Origin: an uncultured Candidatus Saccharibacteria bacterium
Lineage (GTDB): Bacteria > Patescibacteriota > Minisyncoccia > Phycocordibacterales > UBA9973
DNA: 58,720 nucleotides
NCBI GenBank assembly: GCA_964611515.1
Contig: CAZTAH010000001.1
Location: forward strand, 1 to 58,720
Direction: 5' to 3'
The position numbers and the translations under genes were made by a program. Shown piece after piece: positions 11,275 to 58,720 of the stretch (position 1 is the stretch's first letter; every line of letters starts with the position of its first letter). The notes under the pieces are model-generated. The model made no database searches, was not told the origin of the DNA, and saw only the letters and a program-made list of their open reading frames with translations.

Positions 11275-11410
11275 CCCCACAAACCCATATTTCCATTGCT
11301 TTTTGTGGTTAGATTAAGTTTCTTCAGAATAAAACTGAGGAATTGTCTTTTAGTTAAATAAATATTTACTAATAATAAAAAAGCTAAAGGATGGAAATAT
11401 AGGTGTGGGG
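11275..11410 (+). repeat. MITE-like ~135-bp element, copy 1
   Basis: Termini CCCCACAAACCCATATTTCCAT.. and ..ATGGAAATATAGGTGTGGGG are imperfect inverted repeats. Homologous to 29719, 42804, 57891 and 58253. Confidence 0.8.
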
Positions 11411-11624
11411 ATTTAGCATAATTTCGCCAGCCCGCCTGCTAATGCTTAGCATTTCGGGCAGGCAGGCGAAATAGCCGAGCCGGGTGAGAAAGCGAACACT
11501 TGGAGCTTTTGCAAGACCTTGAGCGTTTTGTAATCAAAATGCGAAAGGTGTACAGATCCTGAAAGGATCGCGAGTACTTACATATTTTGCGAATACTTGG
11601 AGCAAAATATTTAGTAACTTGTGA

Positions 11625-27532: not shown

Positions 27533-27561
27533 TTGAAAGAGGTTTTTTTATATGCTATTAT
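27533..27561 (+). promoter_or_regulatory. sigma70-like promoter (TTGAAA-17-TATTAT)
   Basis: The -10 box ends 7 nt before ATG 27569, implying a leaderless or near-leaderless mRNA. Confidence 0.45.
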
Positions 27562-27568
27562 TTTACCT

Positions 27569-27823
27569 ATGGAGAAGGGAGAAAAAGAACTACTGAAGGA
27601 GATATTAGCTCTTCAAAAAGAAAATAAGGAAATATTATTATCTCTAAAGAAAAGCATAAGATGGACTTCTCTTTCTAGAGCTTTTTATTGGATCTTAATC
27701 GCCGCTATGGCACTAGGCGCTTTTCTTTATATAAAACCTTATTTGGGAGGATTTCTTAATATATATAGCGGAAATGTTTCGGGGGTAAATATATTGGAGT
27801 TAAGAAAAAGTTTAACAGAATAA
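27569..27823 (+). CDS. hypothetical membrane protein
   Basis: 84 aa from the ATG with one TM segment. The track's TTG start at 27533 coincides with the -35 box. Confidence 0.4.
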   Translation: MEKGEKELLKEILALQKENKEILLSLKKSIRWTSLSRAFYWILIAAMALGAFLYIKPYLGGFLNIYSGNVSGVNILELRKSLTE

Positions 27824-27827
27824 TAAT

Positions 27828-27900
27828 GCTTGGGTAGCTCAGTTGGTAGAGCGCTCCCCTGAAGAGGGATAGGTCGGCAGTTCAATTCTGCCCCCAAGCA
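27828..27900 (+). tRNA. tRNA-Phe(GAA)
   Basis: Acceptor GCTTGGG/CCCAAGC. D arm GCTCAGTTGGTAGAGC. Anticodon loop CTGAAGA. T arm GGCAG-TTCAATT-CTGCC. Confidence 0.9.
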
Positions 27901-27906
27901 CAGAAC

Positions 27907-27940
27907 CACAGGACCGTCCTAGACACAGGACGGTCCTGTG
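27907..27940 (+). other. perfect 14-bp GC-rich hairpin just after tRNA-Phe
   Basis: CACAGGACCGTCCT agacac AGGACGGTCCTGTG. The AGGACCGTCCTAGAC module recurs at 57829-57846. Confidence 0.7.
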
Positions 27941-27988
27941 TAATATCTCTACGCCTAATAGAGATATTGGTTTGTGGGGGGGGCCTGT

Positions 27989-28034
27989 CCCCACATCAAT
28001 ATCTCCACACCTAATGGAGATATTGGTAGTGGGG
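27989..28034. repeat. 46-bp mini-palindrome with MITE-type termini
   Basis: CCCCACATCAATATCTCCA cacctaa TGGAGATATTGGTAGTGGGG. A half-copy lies at 27942-27979. Confidence 0.75.
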
Positions 28035-28069
28035 ATAACCAAGTGTCCGGCCGGACCTCTTGTTACACC
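28033..28069. repeat. REP-like palindrome, degenerate copy a
   Basis: GGATAACCAAGTGTCCGGCCGGACCTCTTGTTACACC. Confidence 0.6.
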
Positions 28070-28093
28070 AAGAGACTTTCTGTTATTATTTCA

Positions 28094-28424
28094 TAAGGGT
28101 TATTTTTGATTTTTAGACTTAAGGTCTCCCGAGTCTTTTTTCCATTTTTACCCTTATATAGTAATGCTTATTCTATACTCAGCTTACACGATCGTACGTT
28201 TTGAGTATAAATAGGCCTTTATAAAATAAGGGTTATTTTTGATTTTTAGACTTAAAGTCTCCCGAGTCTTTTTTCCATTTTTACCCTTATATAGTAATGC
28301 TTATTCTATACTCAGCTTACACGATCGTACGTTTTGAGTATAAATAGGCCTTTATAAAATAAGGGTTATTTTTGATTTTTAGACTTAAAGTCTCCCGAGT
28401 CTTTTTTCCATTTTTACCCTTATA
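28094..28424. repeat. 132/133-bp tandem repeat, ~2.5 copies
   Basis: Unit starts at 28094, 28226 and 28359. One poly-T indel and one A/G difference. Two hairpins per unit. Confidence 0.9.
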
Positions 28425-28445
28425 ACATAAACCTAGAAATTAACA

Positions 28446-28483
28446 GGTGTAACAAGACGGACGGCCGTCCGTCTTGTTACACC
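28446..28483. repeat. REP-like palindrome, perfect 38-bp copy b
   Basis: GGTGTAACAAGACGGACGGCCGTCCGTCTTGTTACACC. Confidence 0.9.
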
Positions 28484-28485
28484 TA

Positions 28486-28946
28486 GCGAAACAGAGCAAA
28501 TAAATTTGCTATATTTTAACTCACGCTTTTGGTCACAAATAATTCCTCTGTCGTCACATCGGAATTTTCGCGACCCCGGCTCGCGGTTTTGTTTGCTAAC
28601 AAAACATCGCTCCGCCTCACAAAAGCGAAACAGAGCAAATAAATTTGCTATATTTTAACTCACGCTTTTGGTCACAAATAATTCCTCTGTCGTCACATCG
28701 GAATTTTCGCGACCCCGGCTCGCGGTTTTGTTTGCTAACAAAACATCGCTCCGCCTCACAAAAGCGAAATATAGCAAATAAATTTGCTATATTTTAACTC
28801 ACGCTTTTGGTCACAAATAATTCCTCTGTCGTCACATCGGAATTTTCGCGACCCCGGCTCGCGGTTTTGTTTGCTAACAAAACATCGCTCCGCCTCACAA
28901 AAGCGAAATATAGCAAATAAATTTGCTATATTTTAACTCACGCTTT
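28486..28946 (-). repeat. 139-bp tandem array (3.3 copies), Arg-linked tRNA-trailer family
   Basis: Unit starts at 28486, 28625, 28764 and 28903. The minus strand is in the sense of tRNA-Arg. Confidence 0.9.
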
Positions 28947-28965
28947 TGTGCCCTCGGCAGGAATC
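28947..28965 (-). repeat. displaced exact copy of tRNA-Arg 3' end (19 nt)
   Basis: Minus sense GATTCCTGCCGAGGGCACA equals the end of the gene at 29167-29185. Flanked by GTGACC and AAAGCG. Confidence 0.9.
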
Positions 28966-29096
28966 GGTCACTCTCGTGGATATTTTGTTTCTGGTTCGAC
29001 AAGCTCACCATCACAAAATATCTCACTCCATCGGCCCCCACTCGGTCGTTTCCTTTTTCCTAATCTTAATTAGGAAAAAGGGCTTTGCGCGACCTC

Positions 29097-29119
29097 GGTT
29101 CGATTCCCGCGAATTGCAC
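29097..29119 (+). other. orphan tRNA T-loop/3'-end-like fragment
   Basis: GGTTCGATTCCCGCGAATTGCAC. No matching 5' half. Confidence 0.4.
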
Positions 29120-29168
29120 TAAAATTCTAAATCCCAAGAACTCCGTTCTTGGTCTTAAGTATTTTATG

Positions 29169-29240
29169 TGCCCTCGGCAGGAATCGAACCCACATCTATT
29201 CCTTAGGACGGAACTGTTCTATCCATTGAACTACGAGGGC
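29169..29240 (-). tRNA. tRNA-Arg(CCT)
   Basis: Minus sense GCCCTCG..CGAGGGC-A. Anticodon arm GTTCC-GTCCTAA-GGAAT. T arm GTGGG-TTCGATT-CCTGC. Confidence 0.9.
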
Positions 29241-29246
29241 TTTTAT

Positions 29247-29272
29247 AAAAACACTCCCTTCGGAATGTTTTT
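29247..29272 (-). terminator. terminator after glutaredoxin-like gene
   Basis: Minus sense AAAAACATTCC gaag GGAGTGTTTTT. Confidence 0.5.
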
Positions 29273-29286
29273 ATATTCTAATTATC

Positions 29287-29526
29287 TTATTCTTCTATGT
29301 CTAGAAGTTTGCTTAGTTTTTCCTTGTCAAAACCAATAACTAAGTCATCTCCAATTACAGTTACAGGTACCCCCATTTGTCCACTTTTATCTAGCATCTC
29401 CTTTCTTTTTTCTAAATCGGTGGCCACATTAAATTCCTCATAAACAATTCCATTAGCAGTAAAAAAATCTTTTACTAGATTGCAAAAATGGCAAGAAGGG
29501 GTAGAATAAATTGTTACTTTTTTCAT
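29287..29526 (-). CDS. glutaredoxin/NrdH-like thioredoxin-fold protein
   Basis: 79 aa with a CHFC active site after beta1 (VTIYSTPSCHFC) and GVPVTVI. Confidence 0.75.
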   Translation of the reverse strand: MKKVTIYSTPSCHFCNLVKDFFTANGIVYEEFNVATDLEKRKEMLDKSGQMGVPVTVIGDDLVIGFDKEKLSKLLDIEE

Positions 29527-29607
29527 ATTTTTATTTATTAATTATTAATATTTAACTTTTTTATTATAGCATATTTTACCAAATGCTTAAATTATAAAAA
29601 TTGATGA

Positions 29608-29646
29608 GGGGGTAACAAGGTGGACGGCCGTCCGTCTTGTTACACC
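29608..29646. repeat. REP-like palindrome copy c
   Basis: GGGGGTAACAAGGTGGACGGCCGTCCGTCTTGTTACACC. Confidence 0.85.
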
Positions 29647-29673
29647 AATGAAGCATTACTAGTTAGTAATTTG

Positions 29674-29711
29674 GATTCTCGCACGCAAGCAAAAGATTGC
29701 TTGCTTACCTG
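29674..29711 (+). repeat. second copy of split tRNA-Gly-3'-like module
   Basis: GATTCTCGC-ACGCAAGCAAAAGATTGCTTGCT-TACCTG resembles 29958-30000. Confidence 0.7.
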
Positions 29712-29718
29712 AAATAAT

Positions 29719-29853
29719 CCCCACACCTATATTTCCATCCTTTAGCTTTTTTGTTATTAGTAAATATTTATTTAATTAAAAAAAACCTCTCAGTTTTGCT
29801 CTGAAGATTTTTCAACTAACCACAAAAAGCAATGGAAATATTGGTTTGTGGGG
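29719..29853 (-). repeat. MITE-like element, copy 2 (inverted)
   Basis: Runs from CCCCACACCTATATTTCCAT.. to ..ATGGAAATATTGGTTTGTGGGG. Confidence 0.8.
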
Positions 29854-30032
29854 GTGCGGGTAGCGAGACCGCGAGTACGCTTATCGATCCTTACAGGATC
29901 TGTACACTCTTCGTATTATTTGGAATTAAAAATTCCAAATAATATACTCAGAGTCTTCGATTCTCGCACGCAAGCAAAACTATTTGCTTGCTTACCCGCA
30001 TTAAAAAGCTCCACTGGAGATTTTTAATTTAG
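29854..30032 (-). repeat. Gly-linked trailer unit bounded by tRNA-Gly 3'-end copy
   Basis: Minus sense holds a weak hairpin, then TGCGGGTA-[hairpin]-GCGAGAATCG (antisense to the tRNA 3' end). After more hairpins it ends TCTCGCTACCCGCAC (29854-29868), a 15-nt direct copy of the tRNA end. Confidence 0.75.
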
Positions 30033-30103
30033 TGCGGGTAGCGAGAATCGAACTCGCGTCTCAACCTTGGGAAGGTCGCATGCTGCCACTATACCATACC
30101 CGC
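30033..30103 (-). tRNA. tRNA-Gly(CCC)
   Basis: Minus sense GCGGGTA..TACCCGC-A. Anticodon arm CGACC-TTCCCAA-GGTTG. T arm GCGAG-TTCGATT-CTCGC. Confidence 0.9.
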
Positions 30104-30108
30104 TTATT

Positions 30109-30486
30109 TTAATTTATAAAAAAACTCTTCATCTTATCTAAAAAACTTTTATTTTTTTCTGGTTCTTCTTTTTCTAGATCCTCTGGTTCTTCCTCTATGA
30201 TATTTAACACTTTTTCTCCTTCTTTTGCCACCTGATACTTAATCCTTATTATCCCTTCTTTTCCCTCCTCTGTGCCAAGATCATGAATTTCCTGATTTAA
30301 GCCTTCTATTCTTTTATTTAAATCATTAACCTCATTTTCTACCACACCTCTAATAAATTTGGCATTTTGGTATCTTTTAAATAAATCAAGAGTTTTATAA
30401 GAAAAGAGTATTAATAAACCGAATAAAAAGAGTAAAACTACAGGTGAGTACCAAAGTTTATTTTTCTTTTTCTTGTGCTTCCTCAT
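30109..30486 (-). CDS. FtsB/DivIC-like septum-formation protein
   Basis: 125 aa: basic N-terminus, one TM, then a leucine-zipper-like coiled coil. Confidence 0.5.
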   Translation of the reverse strand: MRKHKKKKNKLWYSPVVLLFLFGLLILFSYKTLDLFKRYQNAKFIRGVVENEVNDLNKRIEGLNQEIHDLGTEEGKEGIIRIKYQVAKEGEKVLNIIEEEPEDLEKEEPEKNKSFLDKMKSFFIN

Positions 30487-42803: not shown

Positions 42804-42938
42804 CCCCACAAACCCATATTTCCATTGCTTTTTGTGGCTAGCTAAAATCTCTTCAGAACAAGAGCTGAAGATCTTTTTTTAATTAAACAAAACTTTCTAA
42901 TAATAAAAAAGCTAGGGGATAGAAATATAGGTGTGGGG
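42804..42938 (+). repeat. MITE-like element, copy 3
   Basis: Runs from CCCCACAAACCCATATTTCCAT.. to ..ATAGAAATATAGGTGTGGGG. Confidence 0.8.
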
Positions 42939-48715: not shown

Positions 48716-48779
48716 TAAAGAGAGTCAGGAGAAAACCGAAAATCCTAAAAAGAGTAGGTGCTATTTAAAAAAACAAGAG

Positions 48780-49013: not shown

Positions 49014-49070
49014 CATTAGGAGAAAGCCGAAAATCCTTAAAAGAGTAGGCAAAATTAAAAATTTAAAAAA

Positions 49071-58100: not shown

Positions 58101-58130
58101 GAGCCGCTTCCCAGACTTGAACTGGGGACC
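58101..58130 (-). pseudogene. tRNA-like 3' half (intact T arm + acceptor 3' strand) of a tRNA not present in the window
   Basis: Minus sense GGTC-CCCAG-TTCAAGT-CTGGG-AAGCGGC-TCA. No matching 5' acceptor strand nearby. Confidence 0.5.
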
Positions 58131-58252
58131 TTCGCTTTAGTTATGCGCCTGTTCCCACTTCGCCAAGGCTACGCGGGACAAGCTCGCACACCCACTTTTC
58201 TCAATTCTTAGAGGTGGGTTTCGTGGGGGCCTGCCTGCGCAGGCGGGCCTGT

Positions 58253-58385
58253 CCCCACACCAATGTTTTCATTCTTTTGCTTTTTTGTTATTAGAAAGTT
58301 TAATTTAATTAAAAAATAATCTCTCACTCTTGCTCTGAAGAGATTTTAGTTGAATACAAAAAGCTATGGAAATATTGGTGTGGGG
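58253..58385 (-). repeat. MITE-like element, copy 5 (inverted)
   Basis: Runs from CCCCACACCAATGTTTTCAT.. to ..ATGGAAATATTGGTGTGGGG. Confidence 0.8.
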
Positions 58386-58720
58386 ATTGACATAGCCTAG
58401 ATTGATTACTTTTCGTGAGCCGCTTCCCAGACTTAAGCTAGGATTCTTTGCTTTAGTTATGCGCCTGTCCGCACACCTACTTTTCTTGATTCTTAAAAGT
58501 GGGTGTGGGGATTGACATAACCTAGATAAGTTACAATACTTGAGCCGCTTCCCAGACTTAAGCTAGGATTCTTTGCTTTAGTTATGCGCCTGTCCGCACA
58601 CCTACTTTTCTTGATTCTTAAAAGTGGGTGTGGGGATTGACATAGCCTAGATTGATTACTTTTCGTGAGCCGCTTCCCAGACTTAAGCTAGGATTCTTTG
58701 CTTTAGTTATGCTTTGACAT
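58382..58720 (-). repeat. 125-bp tandem array (at least 2.7 copies) running into the contig end
   Basis: Unit starts at 58382, 58507 and 58632. Each unit carries CTTAAGTCTGGGAAGCGGCTCA (minus sense) and the hairpin CACACCCACTTTT..AAAAGTAGGTGTG. Confidence 0.9.

What the first reader, a model, noticed from the sequence alone, without database searches (positions are those of the whole stretch)
27901..29168. 1.27-kb coding desert between convergent tRNA-Phe and tRNA-Arg made entirely of stacked repeat modules
Seen: no credible ORF lies in this interval. In order it contains a perfect 14-bp GC hairpin, two mini-palindromes with TGTGGGG ends and a degenerate REP-like palindrome. Then come a 132/133-bp repeat x2.5, a perfect 38-bp palindrome and a 139-bp repeat x3.3. 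It ends with a displaced tRNA-Arg 3' copy and a 203-bp segment with an orphan T-loop-like fragment. A tightly packed reduced genome (most intergenic gaps here are under 50 bp) is spending over 2% of this window on the region. That suggests function or active turnover.
Basis: seen in the sequence. Interest (0 to 1): 0.6.

Follow-up and report, generated by a model that had tools for sequence, protein, structure and literature searches.

The report
Repeat island in fused tRNA trailers
The gene-free 1.27 kb between tRNA-Phe and tRNA-Arg is real: it is the two tRNA tails, brought face to face by a local inversion and filled with small protein-less, hairpin-forming repeats, including an apparently undescribed family that sits at tRNA gene ends and carries an arm complementary to its own tRNA.

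Summary
Observation confirmed. No ORF over 67 aa lies there and no Rfam family matches except the tRNAs.

The interval is two tRNA 3' trailers fused. In seven same-genus genomes the order is Hsp20 | <-Phe <-96-aa ORF <-Arg. Here the block ORF96 + tRNA-Phe is inverted.

- **Arg side:** one ~200-nt "type A" element sits in the T-loop of tRNA-Arg(CCT). It regenerates the tRNA end and displaces the old end (28948-28965). Beyond that lie 3.3 tandem ~139-nt "type B" elements.
- **Shared design of A and B:** a hairpin made of the tRNA end plus a complementary arm, then a domain closed by GGUCGCG:GUGACC. The fold forms on the tRNA-sense strand only.
- **Spread of type B:** 55/61 genomes of the genus, 86/121 of the order, almost none elsewhere in the phylum. 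84 metagenome contigs hold it, mostly directly behind tRNA genes.
- **Phe side:** dispersed palindromes, mini-foldbacks and a 133-bp repeat. Matches were seen only in this genome.

Turnover is supported. The enzyme and any host function are unknown. This scan has met the same family before on other DNA.

The parts
27533..27823 (+). 96-aa ORF (no Pfam hit). With tRNA-Phe it forms the block that is inverted relative to relatives.
   Evidence: In seven same-genus genomes it lies between tRNA-Arg and tRNA-Phe on their strand. The Hsp20-ORF96-tRNA-Phe order found here recurs in Logan contigs of at least 5 runs.
27828..27901 (+). tRNA-Phe(GAA); left border of the island
   Evidence: ARAGORN; Rfam tRNA 68.2 bits
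27907..27940 (.). REP1: perfect 14-bp-arm GC hairpin. It belongs to a dispersed palindrome family.
   Evidence: I9. 31 hits at about 17 loci in this genome. Logan contigs break inside it.
27942..28035 (+). Two mini-foldbacks (30-nt units at 27942-27971 and 27998-28027), each followed by a G-rich motif: GGTTTGTGGGG after the first, GGTAGTGGGG after the second. Their ends resemble those of the ~135-bp MITE-like element at 29716-29853.
   Evidence: D3, I10. 12 hits at about 7 loci. The MITE ends CCCCACA...TGTGGGG are read from the sequence.
28036..28075 (.). Degenerate copy of the REP2 palindrome
   Evidence: (I11, D4, I8): 82-86% match to 28445-28484
28086..28424 (+). 133-bp two-hairpin repeat, 2.5 tandem copies. 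Related single copies are dispersed in this genome. It carries no tRNA piece.
   Evidence: TRF. 29 hits at about 16 loci, none inside ORFs of at least 100 aa. Fold z-score is -4.5 on the + strand and -2.7 on the - strand. No match from another genome appears among the listed hits.
28445..28484 (.). REP2: perfect 40-bp palindrome
   Evidence: I7. 24 hits at about 17 loci.
28485..28947 (-). Type B tRNA-end elements: three full 139-nt units (28809-28947, 28670-28808, 28531-28669) plus a partial fourth (28485-28530, first hairpin only)
   Evidence: TRF. Model R1 gives 81.6 bits for each of the three cores. The core aligns column for column with 55 metagenome copies. Three-hairpin fold of -60.9 kcal/mol, z = -8.3, against -48.6 kcal/mol on the other strand.
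28948..28965 (-). Displaced copy of the last 18 nt of tRNA-Arg(CCT), running from the T-loop to the discriminator plus C
   Evidence: Exact 18/18 match; 22/23 over 28944-28966 (D6)
28966..29167 (-). Type A tRNA-end element, 202 nt. Left hairpin; an arm at 29097-29119 complementary to the T-arm of tRNA-Arg; a three-way junction closed by GGUCGC:GUGACC.
   Evidence: Homologous units sit behind tRNA-Lys(CTT), Gly(TCC), Arg(TCT) and Ser(GCT) here and behind Leu(TAA), Gln(CTG) and Lys(CTT) in relatives. In the alignment, 17 of 39 predicted pairs show compensatory changes. Fold z = -8.3.
29168..29240 (-). tRNA-Arg(CCT); right border. Its present 3' end is the copy supplied with the type A element.
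   Evidence: ARAGORN and Rfam. That the element supplied this end is inferred from the direct repeat.

Best explanation
The interval is non-coding DNA built from small mobile repeats that piled up in the 3' trailers of two tRNA genes.

**How the two trailers came together (inferred by parsimony).** A lineage-specific inversion of the block [96-aa ORF + tRNA-Phe] turned the Phe trailer to face the Arg trailer. That produced one 1.27-kb desert.

**Arg side: read outward from the tRNA, newest first.**
1. A ~200-nt type A element lies in the T-loop of tRNA-Arg(CCT). It brings its own copy of the tRNA 3' end, so the gene stays intact.
2. This pushed the old 3' end (28948-28965) outward.
3. Behind the old end lie type B elements, which sit directly after the tRNA's terminal ...CAC. 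There are three full units plus a partial fourth.

A and B share a design: a first hairpin in which the tRNA end pairs with a complementary arm of the element, then a domain closed by the helix GGUCGCG:GUGACC. The conserved G.U pairs exist only on the tRNA-sense strand. The active form is therefore a single strand, either RNA or ssDNA.

**Phe side.** REP-like palindromes, mini-foldbacks and a 133-bp two-hairpin repeat, all dispersed through this genome.

**Shown:** the anatomy, the family membership, the strand-specific fold, the tRNA-matched arms, presence/absence differences among relatives, and an identical copy at two loci in one relative.

**Inferred:**
- Insertion is site-specific and done in trans, since no element encodes a protein.
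- Candidate enzymes are the genus's large serine recombinases, one clade of which overlaps tRNA gene 3' ends; one such element ends in a displaced tRNA 3' copy that starts in the T-loop.
- The tandem copies arose by unequal recombination or repeated insertion.
For: **Anatomy.**

**Dispersal in this genome.** 35 sizeable non-coding repeat islands. At least 13 lie on the 3' side of a tRNA gene and none was scored on a 5' side. 12 lie at contig ends. Seven or more tRNAs carry downstream copies of their own last 18 nt at spacings of 125-220 bp.

**Inversion.** Seven same-genus genomes show Hsp20(+) | Phe(-) ORF96(-) Arg(-). The left junction found here is in Logan contigs of at least 5 runs.

**Type B family.**
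- A 24-mer from its core occurs exactly in 84 metagenome contigs.
- 64 of the 80 contigs read have a co-oriented tRNA or tmRNA within 130 nt upstream; the modal distance is 69-71 nt.
- 35 of 40 arms contain the complement of the last 5 nt of their own tRNA, against 4.5% for other tRNAs.
- In the predicted pairs, G.U/U.G fill 114 cells and A.C/C.A 11.
- Model R1 hits 55/61 genomes of the genus, 86/121 of the order and 3/151 in a phylum-wide sample that includes this genome.

**Type A family.** Compensatory changes in 17 of 39 predicted pairs. Fold z = -8.3.

**Mobility.**
- The tRNA-Arg(CCT) 3' end has no such repeat elements in G013, G007, G003, G015 and G016.
- G017 has 147 nt identical at the tRNA-Lys and tRNA-Leu loci.
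- The order of A and B differs between G000 and G017 at tRNA-Lys.
- Tandem pairs of type B occur in many genomes.

**No cis protein.**

**Serine recombinases at tRNA ends.**. The 6-kb element at tRNA-Tyr in G003 ends with a displaced tRNA 3' copy that starts in the T-loop, followed by an older mini-element.
Against: - No enzyme is tied to the elements.
- This assembly has no tyrosine recombinase and only one serine recombinase, which sits at tRNA-Glu.
- Genomes of the genus with no serine-recombinase match still carry type B.
- The Y1 transposase homologue does not track type B: 53/86 against 20/35.
- Type B units show no clear target duplication, and the 139-bp array lacks the tRNA piece between units. 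Simple repeated T-loop integration therefore cannot explain that array.
- The near-invariant 24-mer and the recurrence between the same tRNA pairs in different organisms would also fit a selected RNA function.
- The inside of the island could not be checked against reads.
Confidence: 0.7

Rival explanations
1. The type A and B units are host-serving structured RNAs, co-transcribed with or released from the tRNA precursor. They could be cis-acting trailers that control 3' processing, termination or stability of their own tRNA, or small RNAs made by the tRNA-processing enzymes. Their spread is only a by-product.
For: - The fold is strand-specific, on the tRNA-sense strand, with invariant G.U pairs.
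- The 24-mer core is identical in 84 contigs.
- The arm pairs with the very end of its own tRNA.
- Orientation is constant and there is no gap after the tRNA.
- The element recurs between the same tRNA pairs, e.g. Arg(GCG)-Arg(CCG) and Lys(CTT)-Leu(TAG), in contigs of different sequence.
Against: - Only a minority of tRNAs in any genome carry one. There are 0-18 copies per genome, and 35/121 genomes of the order gave no match, some of them near-complete in 3-5 contigs.
- The first hairpin looks like an intrinsic terminator placed before the conserved core.
- Tandem arrays, displaced tRNA ends and identical copies at two loci are marks of insertion.
- No expression data could be obtained.
Confidence: 0.2
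2. The units are decayed scars: attL/attR remnants of large integrase-borne islands or prophages that once sat in these tRNA genes. They were later amplified by slippage and have no activity of their own.
For: - A direct repeat of the tRNA 3' end starting in the T-loop is the classic mark of tRNA-integrating elements (own knowledge: Williams 2002, Nucleic Acids Res 30:866).
- Elements carrying a serine recombinase occupy tRNA ends in this genus and leave the same kind of repeat.
Against: - Random decay would not leave a 93-nt core aligned column for column in 56 copies, with compensatory changes and strand-specific G.U pairs.
- It would not leave arms matched to each tRNA.
- It would not leave units of constant length (128-131 nt in most copies).
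- No similarity was found between the units and the serine-recombinase/Rep element on contig C9.
Confidence: 0.07
3. The interval is an assembly artefact: a chimeric or collapsed path through dispersed repeats.
For: - Most modules here recur elsewhere in this genome at roughly 80-100% identity; REP1, REP2 and the 133-bp repeat each sit at about 16-17 loci.
- Independent unitigs stop at 27939 and at about 29723.
- 12 repeat islands lie at contig ends.
- Two consecutive identical 139-bp units cannot be counted from short reads.
Against: - Both flanks are neighbours in every relative examined: Hsp20, Phe, ORF96, Arg, grx and Gly lie within about 2 kb. The join therefore links the right loci.
- The tRNA-Arg / type A / displaced end / type B layout matches the layout at tRNA-Lys, Gly and Leu on other contigs and in relatives.
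- Unit variants (ACAGAG versus ATATAG) give the array an internal order.
Confidence: 0.05

Closest known systems
Mosaic clusters of small intergenic repeats: REP/BIME of enterobacteria, NIME/Correia elements of Neisseria (own knowledge)
   Same: Non-coding, palindromic or foldback units of 30-150 bp. They are dispersed at many intergenic sites, stacked in varying order and orientation, and break short-read assemblies. A Y1 (RAYT-like) transposase homologue is encoded in the genome.
   Different: Here the clusters favour the 3' side of tRNA genes. The Y1 gene is not flanked by the palindromes. Two of the unit types carry arms and copies tailored to the adjacent tRNA, which REP and BIME units do not.
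Integrative elements in tRNA/tmRNA gene 3' ends and their integrase-less remnants: P4-type islands, CIME-type cis-mobilisable elements (own knowledge)
   Same: A direct repeat of the tRNA 3' end that begins in the T-loop. The gene is regenerated. Successive elements pile up behind one tRNA. tmRNA is also a target.
   Different: The units are 110-220 nt with no gene. They have a conserved, covarying, strand-specific fold and an inverted arm complementary to the tRNA end. Type B has no evident repeat of the target. No tyrosine integrase is in this assembly.
Recombination sites that act as folded single strands: integron attC sites, CTX-phi-type elements using Xer (own knowledge)
   Same: Structure is conserved more than sequence in the variable stems. 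Only one strand folds properly. Tandem arrays are common. A duplex that mimics the target is formed by pairing within the element.
   Different: No integron integrase and no Xer link is shown. The target is a tRNA end, not attI or dif. A long invariant core is present.
IS200/IS605-type single-strand transposons and their protein-less derivatives (PATEs), which read their target by pairing with an internal guide (own knowledge)
   Same: For type B: insertion directly 3' of a short fixed sequence (...CAC) with no clear duplication, a fixed orientation, hairpins near both ends, and an internal segment complementary to the flank.
   Different: The arms are 8-13 nt rather than 4. The presence of the Y1 homologue does not track the element across 121 genomes. 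Type A and some type B copies do carry a long direct repeat of the tRNA end.

Membership tests
REP/BIME (RAYT-mobilised palindromes) | Short imperfect palindromes dispersed in intergenic DNA, often clustered | tested here: met
   REP1 has 31 hits and REP2 has 24, at about 17 loci each, mostly outside long ORFs
REP/BIME (RAYT-mobilised palindromes) | A cognate RAYT gene flanked by its REPs | tested here: not met
   A Y1_Tnp homologue exists (C16:2493-3269; 25-26 bits against a cut-off of 23). No REP1/REP2 copy and no other palindrome flanks it.
MITE | Terminal inverted repeats, a target-site duplication, and a parent transposon with the same ends | tested here: inconclusive
   Inverted ends CCCCACA...TGTGGGG are seen on the ~135-bp element and the mini-foldbacks. 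Duplications and a parent element were not sought systematically.
tRNA-integrating genomic island / prophage | Direct repeat of the tRNA 3' part bracketing the element | tested here: met
   18/18 copy located 220 bp downstream of tRNA-Arg. The same holds at tRNA-Leu, Thr, Lys, Pro and Gly.
tRNA-integrating genomic island / prophage | Integrase gene inside the element, next to the att site | tested here: not met
   No ORF over 67 aa in the interval. No PF00589 match in the genome. No recurrent protein lies next to 80 metagenome copies.
Integron cassette array (attC) | IntI integrase with attI upstream; attC sites with R/L boxes separating ORFs | not tested
   No integrase of that family is in the assembly. 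The boxes were not searched for.
CRISPR or TIGR guide arrays | Constant repeats separated by unique spacers | tested here: not met
   Units abut head to tail and are 98-100% identical throughout. TIGR arrays were met only as a literature hit (PMC12045711, abstract only).
Hammerhead ribozyme | Core CUGANGA ... GAAA around three helices | tested here: not met
   Type A units read (A)CAGUGA-stem-GAAAC, one core nucleotide short. No Rfam hit even at E <= 10.
Any Rfam 15 family | Score at or above the gathering threshold | tested here: not met
   Only tRNAs reach it in 27800-30150
tRNA-end-linked structured mini-elements of this CPR order (working name; undescribed) | Directly behind a tRNA and co-oriented with it; an arm complementary to that tRNA's end; 3' helix GGUCGCG:GUGACC | tested here: met
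   The three 139-nt units score 81.6 bits against model R1 and align fully. The type A unit has the arm at 29097-29119 and the closing helix.

The most novel reading that the evidence does not exclude
Types A and B are a new class of protein-less element that chooses its insertion site by base pairing. An arm in the folded single strand (RNA or ssDNA) reads the 3' end or T-arm of a tRNA gene, and an enzyme supplied in trans or by the host does the joining. Retargeting to another tRNA would then need only changes in the arm. Alternatively the same fold is a cis-acting tRNA-trailer RNA of a kind not yet described.
Probability: 0.25. Interest if true: 0.85.

Novelty: new variant of a known kind. 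Interest (0 to 1): 0.6.

Why it matters
Ultra-small CPR genomes are usually described as streamlined. Yet about 3.6% of this 497-kb genome is non-coding repeat, much of it stacked behind tRNA genes. This island shows how that happens: repeated insertion, tandem growth and an inversion.

The two tRNA-linked element types belong to a family present in about 70% of the genomes sampled in the order. Their arms match each host tRNA and their fold is strand-specific. No Rfam model or paper I could find describes them.

If the arm guides insertion, this would be a very small programmable targeting module. If the fold serves the tRNA, it would be a new layer of tRNA biology in these bacteria. On the practical side, these repeats explain many contig breaks in such genome assemblies.

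Tried and rejected
- **Protein coding:** no ORF over 67 aa. The array ORFs are repeats of 32-50 aa.
- **Known RNA families:** nothing at the gathering threshold or at E <= 10.
- **Hammerhead-like motif in type A:** one core nucleotide is missing and Rfam gives no hit.
- **CRISPR/TIGR arrays:** there are no spacers.
- **Reverse transcriptase and IS110-type recombinase:** absent from the genome.
- **Y1 transposase as the mobiliser of type B:** no association across 121 genomes.
- **Recurrent neighbouring gene:** none near 80 metagenome copies. The only large clusters were spurious ORFs running through the elements themselves.
- **Similarity to the serine-recombinase/Rep element on C9:** none.
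- **Other assemblies of the island interior:** looked for through exact products of six ORFs (29287-29526, 29085-29339, 27839-28042, 28645-28797, 28946-29122 and others). None is on record.
- **Literature:** two full-text searches found no description. One search failed on syntax.
- **First script for arm/tRNA matching:** it used a rigid register and gave zeros. A 5-mer test replaced it.
Full report
**1. Observation**

The window is contig C1 of a 496,864-base, 37-contig, 34% G+C genome rated 99% complete. tRNA-Phe(GAA) lies at 27828-27901 (+) and tRNA-Arg(CCT) at 29168-29240 (-), so they converge.
- a perfect 14-bp-arm hairpin (27907-27940);
- two 30-nt foldbacks, each followed by a G-rich ...GTGGGG motif (27942-28035);
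- a degenerate palindrome (28036-28065);
- a 133-bp repeat x2.5 (28093-28424);
- a perfect 40-bp palindrome (28445-28484);
- a 139-bp repeat x3.3 (28485-28948);
- a copy of the last 18 nt of tRNA-Arg (28948-28965);
- a 202-bp segment holding an inverted T-arm-like piece (29097-29124).

No ORF exceeds 67 aa. Rfam finds only the tRNAs, even at E <= 10.

**2. The interval is one of many such islands**

A self-comparison marks 5.1% of the genome as repeated, and 18 kb of that lies outside long ORFs. Of 35 sizeable non-coding islands, at least 13 start at the 3' end of a tRNA gene and none was scored on a 5' side. Twelve lie at contig ends and about ten are elsewhere. This island is the largest.

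Seven or more tRNAs are followed by copies of their own last 18 nt at regular spacing: Leu(CAA) 149 bp x5, Thr(TGT) 125 bp x3, Lys(CTT) 215 bp x2, Arg(CCT) 220 bp, Pro(TGG) 138 bp, and Gly(TCC). The Thr array is the end of this window and joins contig C4.

**3. Two trailers fused by an inversion**

Seven same-genus genomes share one order: Hsp20(+), then tRNA-Phe, a ~96-aa ORF, tRNA-Arg(CCT), glutaredoxin and tRNA-Gly, all on the other strand. Among them, contigs of G013 (one of the two best DNA matches to the flank) join at tRNA-Phe to give the same order.

Here the block ORF96 (27533-27823) + tRNA-Phe is inverted. The Phe trailer now faces the Arg trailer. Logan contigs from at least five sequencing runs are 100% identical to the window through Hsp20, ORF96 and tRNA-Phe, and all stop at 27939 inside the first palindrome. 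From the right they stop at about 29723, in a MITE-like element.

The borders and the inversion's left junction are therefore independently supported. That both flanks are neighbours in all relatives argues against a chimeric join.

**4. Arg side: two members of a tRNA-end-linked family**

Read on the tRNA-Arg strand, the layout is:
- tRNA-Arg;
- a 202-nt type A unit;
- the displaced 18-nt tRNA end;
- three full 139-nt type B units;
- a partial fourth unit;
- the 40-bp palindrome.

*Type A.* Homologous units follow tRNA-Lys(CTT), Gly(TCC), Arg(TCT) and Ser(GCT) in this genome. In relatives they follow Leu(TAA), Gln(CTG) and Lys(CTT). Each holds an arm that is the complement of its own tRNA's T-loop and T-stem; for Gln the match is a perfect 20 nt.

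The predicted fold has two parts. The first is a long hairpin of tRNA end plus arm. The second is a three-way junction closed by GGUCGC:GUGACC (z = -8.3). In a four-sequence alignment, 17 of 39 predicted pairs keep pairing through changes on both sides.

*Type B.* A 24-mer from the 139-nt unit (CAAAACCGCGAGCCGGGGTCGCGA) occurs exactly in 84 metagenome contigs, once each. Of the 80 contigs read, 64 have a co-oriented tRNA or tmRNA ending within 130 nt upstream, most often 69-71 nt. The unit is usually 128-131 nt long.

The architecture is constant:
- the tRNA's last nucleotides plus an A-rich start;
- a GC hairpin with a T-run;
- an arm complementary to that start and to the tRNA's end;
- GGCGSAGCG...;
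- a short hairpin;
- a long hairpin closed by GGUCGCGA:UUGUGACC.

The window's unit aligns with 55 of these copies column for column. In 35 of 40 non-redundant copies the 15-nt arm contains the complement of the last five nucleotides of its own tRNA. For other tRNAs the figure is 4.5%. A minority of copies pair with the T-loop instead and are followed by a 10-23-nt copy of the tRNA end.

In the predicted pairs, G.U/U.G fill 114 cells and A.C/C.A 11, and two G.U pairs are nearly invariant. The window's unit folds at -60.9 kcal/mol on the tRNA-sense strand and -48.6 on the other. The structure therefore belongs to one strand only, as RNA or as single-stranded DNA.

A covariance model (R1) finds:
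- 11 copies in this genome: three here, five in the Leu array, one behind tRNA-Tyr and two behind tRNA-Ser;
- copies in 55/61 genomes of the genus;
- copies in 86/121 genomes of the order, at 1-18 per genome;
- copies in only 3/151 genomes of a phylum-wide sample, one of them this genome. The filters in these large runs are strict, so the counts are lower bounds.

**5. Evidence of movement**

- The tRNA-Arg(CCT) 3' end has no such repeat elements in G013, G007, G003, G015 and G016.
- G017 carries a 147-nt stretch identical at its tRNA-Lys(CTT) and tRNA-Leu(TAG) loci. It covers a whole 137-nt type B unit between ...GGGCAC and AAAA.
- At tRNA-Lys the order is tRNA-A-end-A-end-B(remnant) in this genome, but tRNA-B-A-end in G017.
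- Adjacent pairs of type B occur in many genomes.

The layout at tRNA-Arg reads like accretion. The B units came first, directly after ...CAC. A then entered the T-loop, supplied a new 3' end and displaced the old one. The 6-kb element at tRNA-Tyr of G003 shows the same logic at large scale: its serine-recombinase gene overlaps the tRNA end, and it finishes with a displaced TTCCTACCCGGCGCAC followed by an older mini-element.

**6. Who moves them?**

No unit encodes a protein, and no protein recurs beside 80 metagenome copies.

This assembly has no tyrosine recombinase, reverse transcriptase or IS110-type enzyme. Even so, 57/61 genomes of the genus have a single Xer-like tyrosine recombinase, so its absence here may be an assembly gap.

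There is one large serine recombinase. Its 3' end overlaps tRNA-Glu(TTC), and it sits next to a rolling-circle Rep of the ORF2/G2P type. Four of the other nine best-scoring serine recombinases in the genus likewise overlap the 3' ends of tRNA-Leu, Tyr, Ala and Glu. That makes serine recombinases the best candidate for the T-loop insertions, but the link is circumstantial, and genomes with no match still carry type B.

A Y1 (IS200/RAYT-like) homologue is present and is multi-copy in some genomes of the order. It does not track type B: 53/86 positives against 20/35. It remains a candidate for the palindromes.

**7. Phe side**

REP1, the mini-foldbacks, REP2 and the 133-bp unit recur at 7-17 other loci in this genome, in varying order and orientation. 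Examples are C10:9170-9404 and C5:2236-2632. Among the matches listed, none to this part came from another genome.

The tRNA-Phe trailer of G013 also holds foldback repeats with CCCCACACC ends. The Phe trailer was therefore a landing pad before the inversion. These units behave like REP/BIME or MITE-type repeats. They carry no tRNA piece.

**8. Verdict**

The desert is a junkyard of small mobile repeats in two fused tRNA trailers. Two of its components belong to an order-wide, apparently undescribed family whose design is unusual: a tRNA-matched arm, a strand-specific fold and regeneration of the tRNA end.

Earlier follow-ups in this scan reached similar readings on neighbouring stretches and on other genomes. 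I re-derived the points used here from my own calls.

Three things remain open: the enzyme, the nature of the active strand (RNA or ssDNA), and any benefit to the host.

Noticed in passing
G000 contig C9:7320-9938 (outside the window; loci L001, L147): A 515-aa large serine recombinase whose last codons overlap the 3' end of tRNA-Glu(TTC). Next to it is a 269-aa rolling-circle Rep (Pfam REP_ORF2-G2P). A degenerate copy of the tRNA's 5' half lies about 100 bp upstream. It looks like an integrated single-stranded-DNA replicon. The same recombinase clade overlaps tRNA-Leu, Tyr, Ala and Glu ends in four other genomes.
   Followed up: partly
G000 contig C16:2493-3269 (-) (locus L014): A 258-aa Y1_Tnp (IS200/RAYT-like) homologue with no flanking palindromes. 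Homologues occur in 73/121 genomes of the order, with up to 13 copies in one genome.
   Followed up: partly
whole genome G000: No Phage_integrase (PF00589) match at all, although 57 of 61 genomes of the genus have one Xer-like gene. Either the gene was truly lost or it lies in an assembly gap.
   Followed up: no
window 58101-58712 and G000 contig C4:1-111: The 125-bp array at the window's end carries the 3' end of tRNA-Thr(TGT). The parent gene is at the start of contig C4, and the two contig ends overlap by about 14 bases, so C1 and C4 join there.
   Followed up: yes
window 48726-48760 and 49017-49051: Two DUF805b RNA motifs (Rfam RF02914; 44.7 and 52 bits) downstream of tRNA-Ala(TGC).
   Followed up: no
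locus L008 (G024:C1, about 287000-287130): In this relative the tRNA-Arg(CCT) gene is bracketed by fragments of a different, older tRNA-Arg copy: a 3' two-thirds on one side and a 5' piece on the other. It looks as if the gene body was replaced by an insertion carrying most of a tRNA.
   Followed up: no
G000 contig C5:16891-16968: ARAGORN calls a tRNA with a four-base anticodon (aacc) inside a 1.4-kb stretch that has no long ORF.
   Followed up: no
window 29716-29853, 11275-11413, 42804-42938, 58252-58379: A ~135-bp MITE-like element with CCCCACA...TGTGGGG ends lies 70-320 bp behind tRNA-Gly, Glu and Trp and inside the Thr array. It is also where Logan contigs coming from the right stop.
   Followed up: partly
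loci L094, L108, L129 (1-70), L143 (6150-6330); window 29860-29900: A third unit type (type C) ends in ...CTGTAAGGAYCGATAAGCGTACTCGCGG followed by a short tRNA piece. It occurs behind tRNA-Gly(CCC) here, behind the serine-recombinase element at tRNA-Tyr in G003, and after type B units in metagenome contigs.
   Followed up: no
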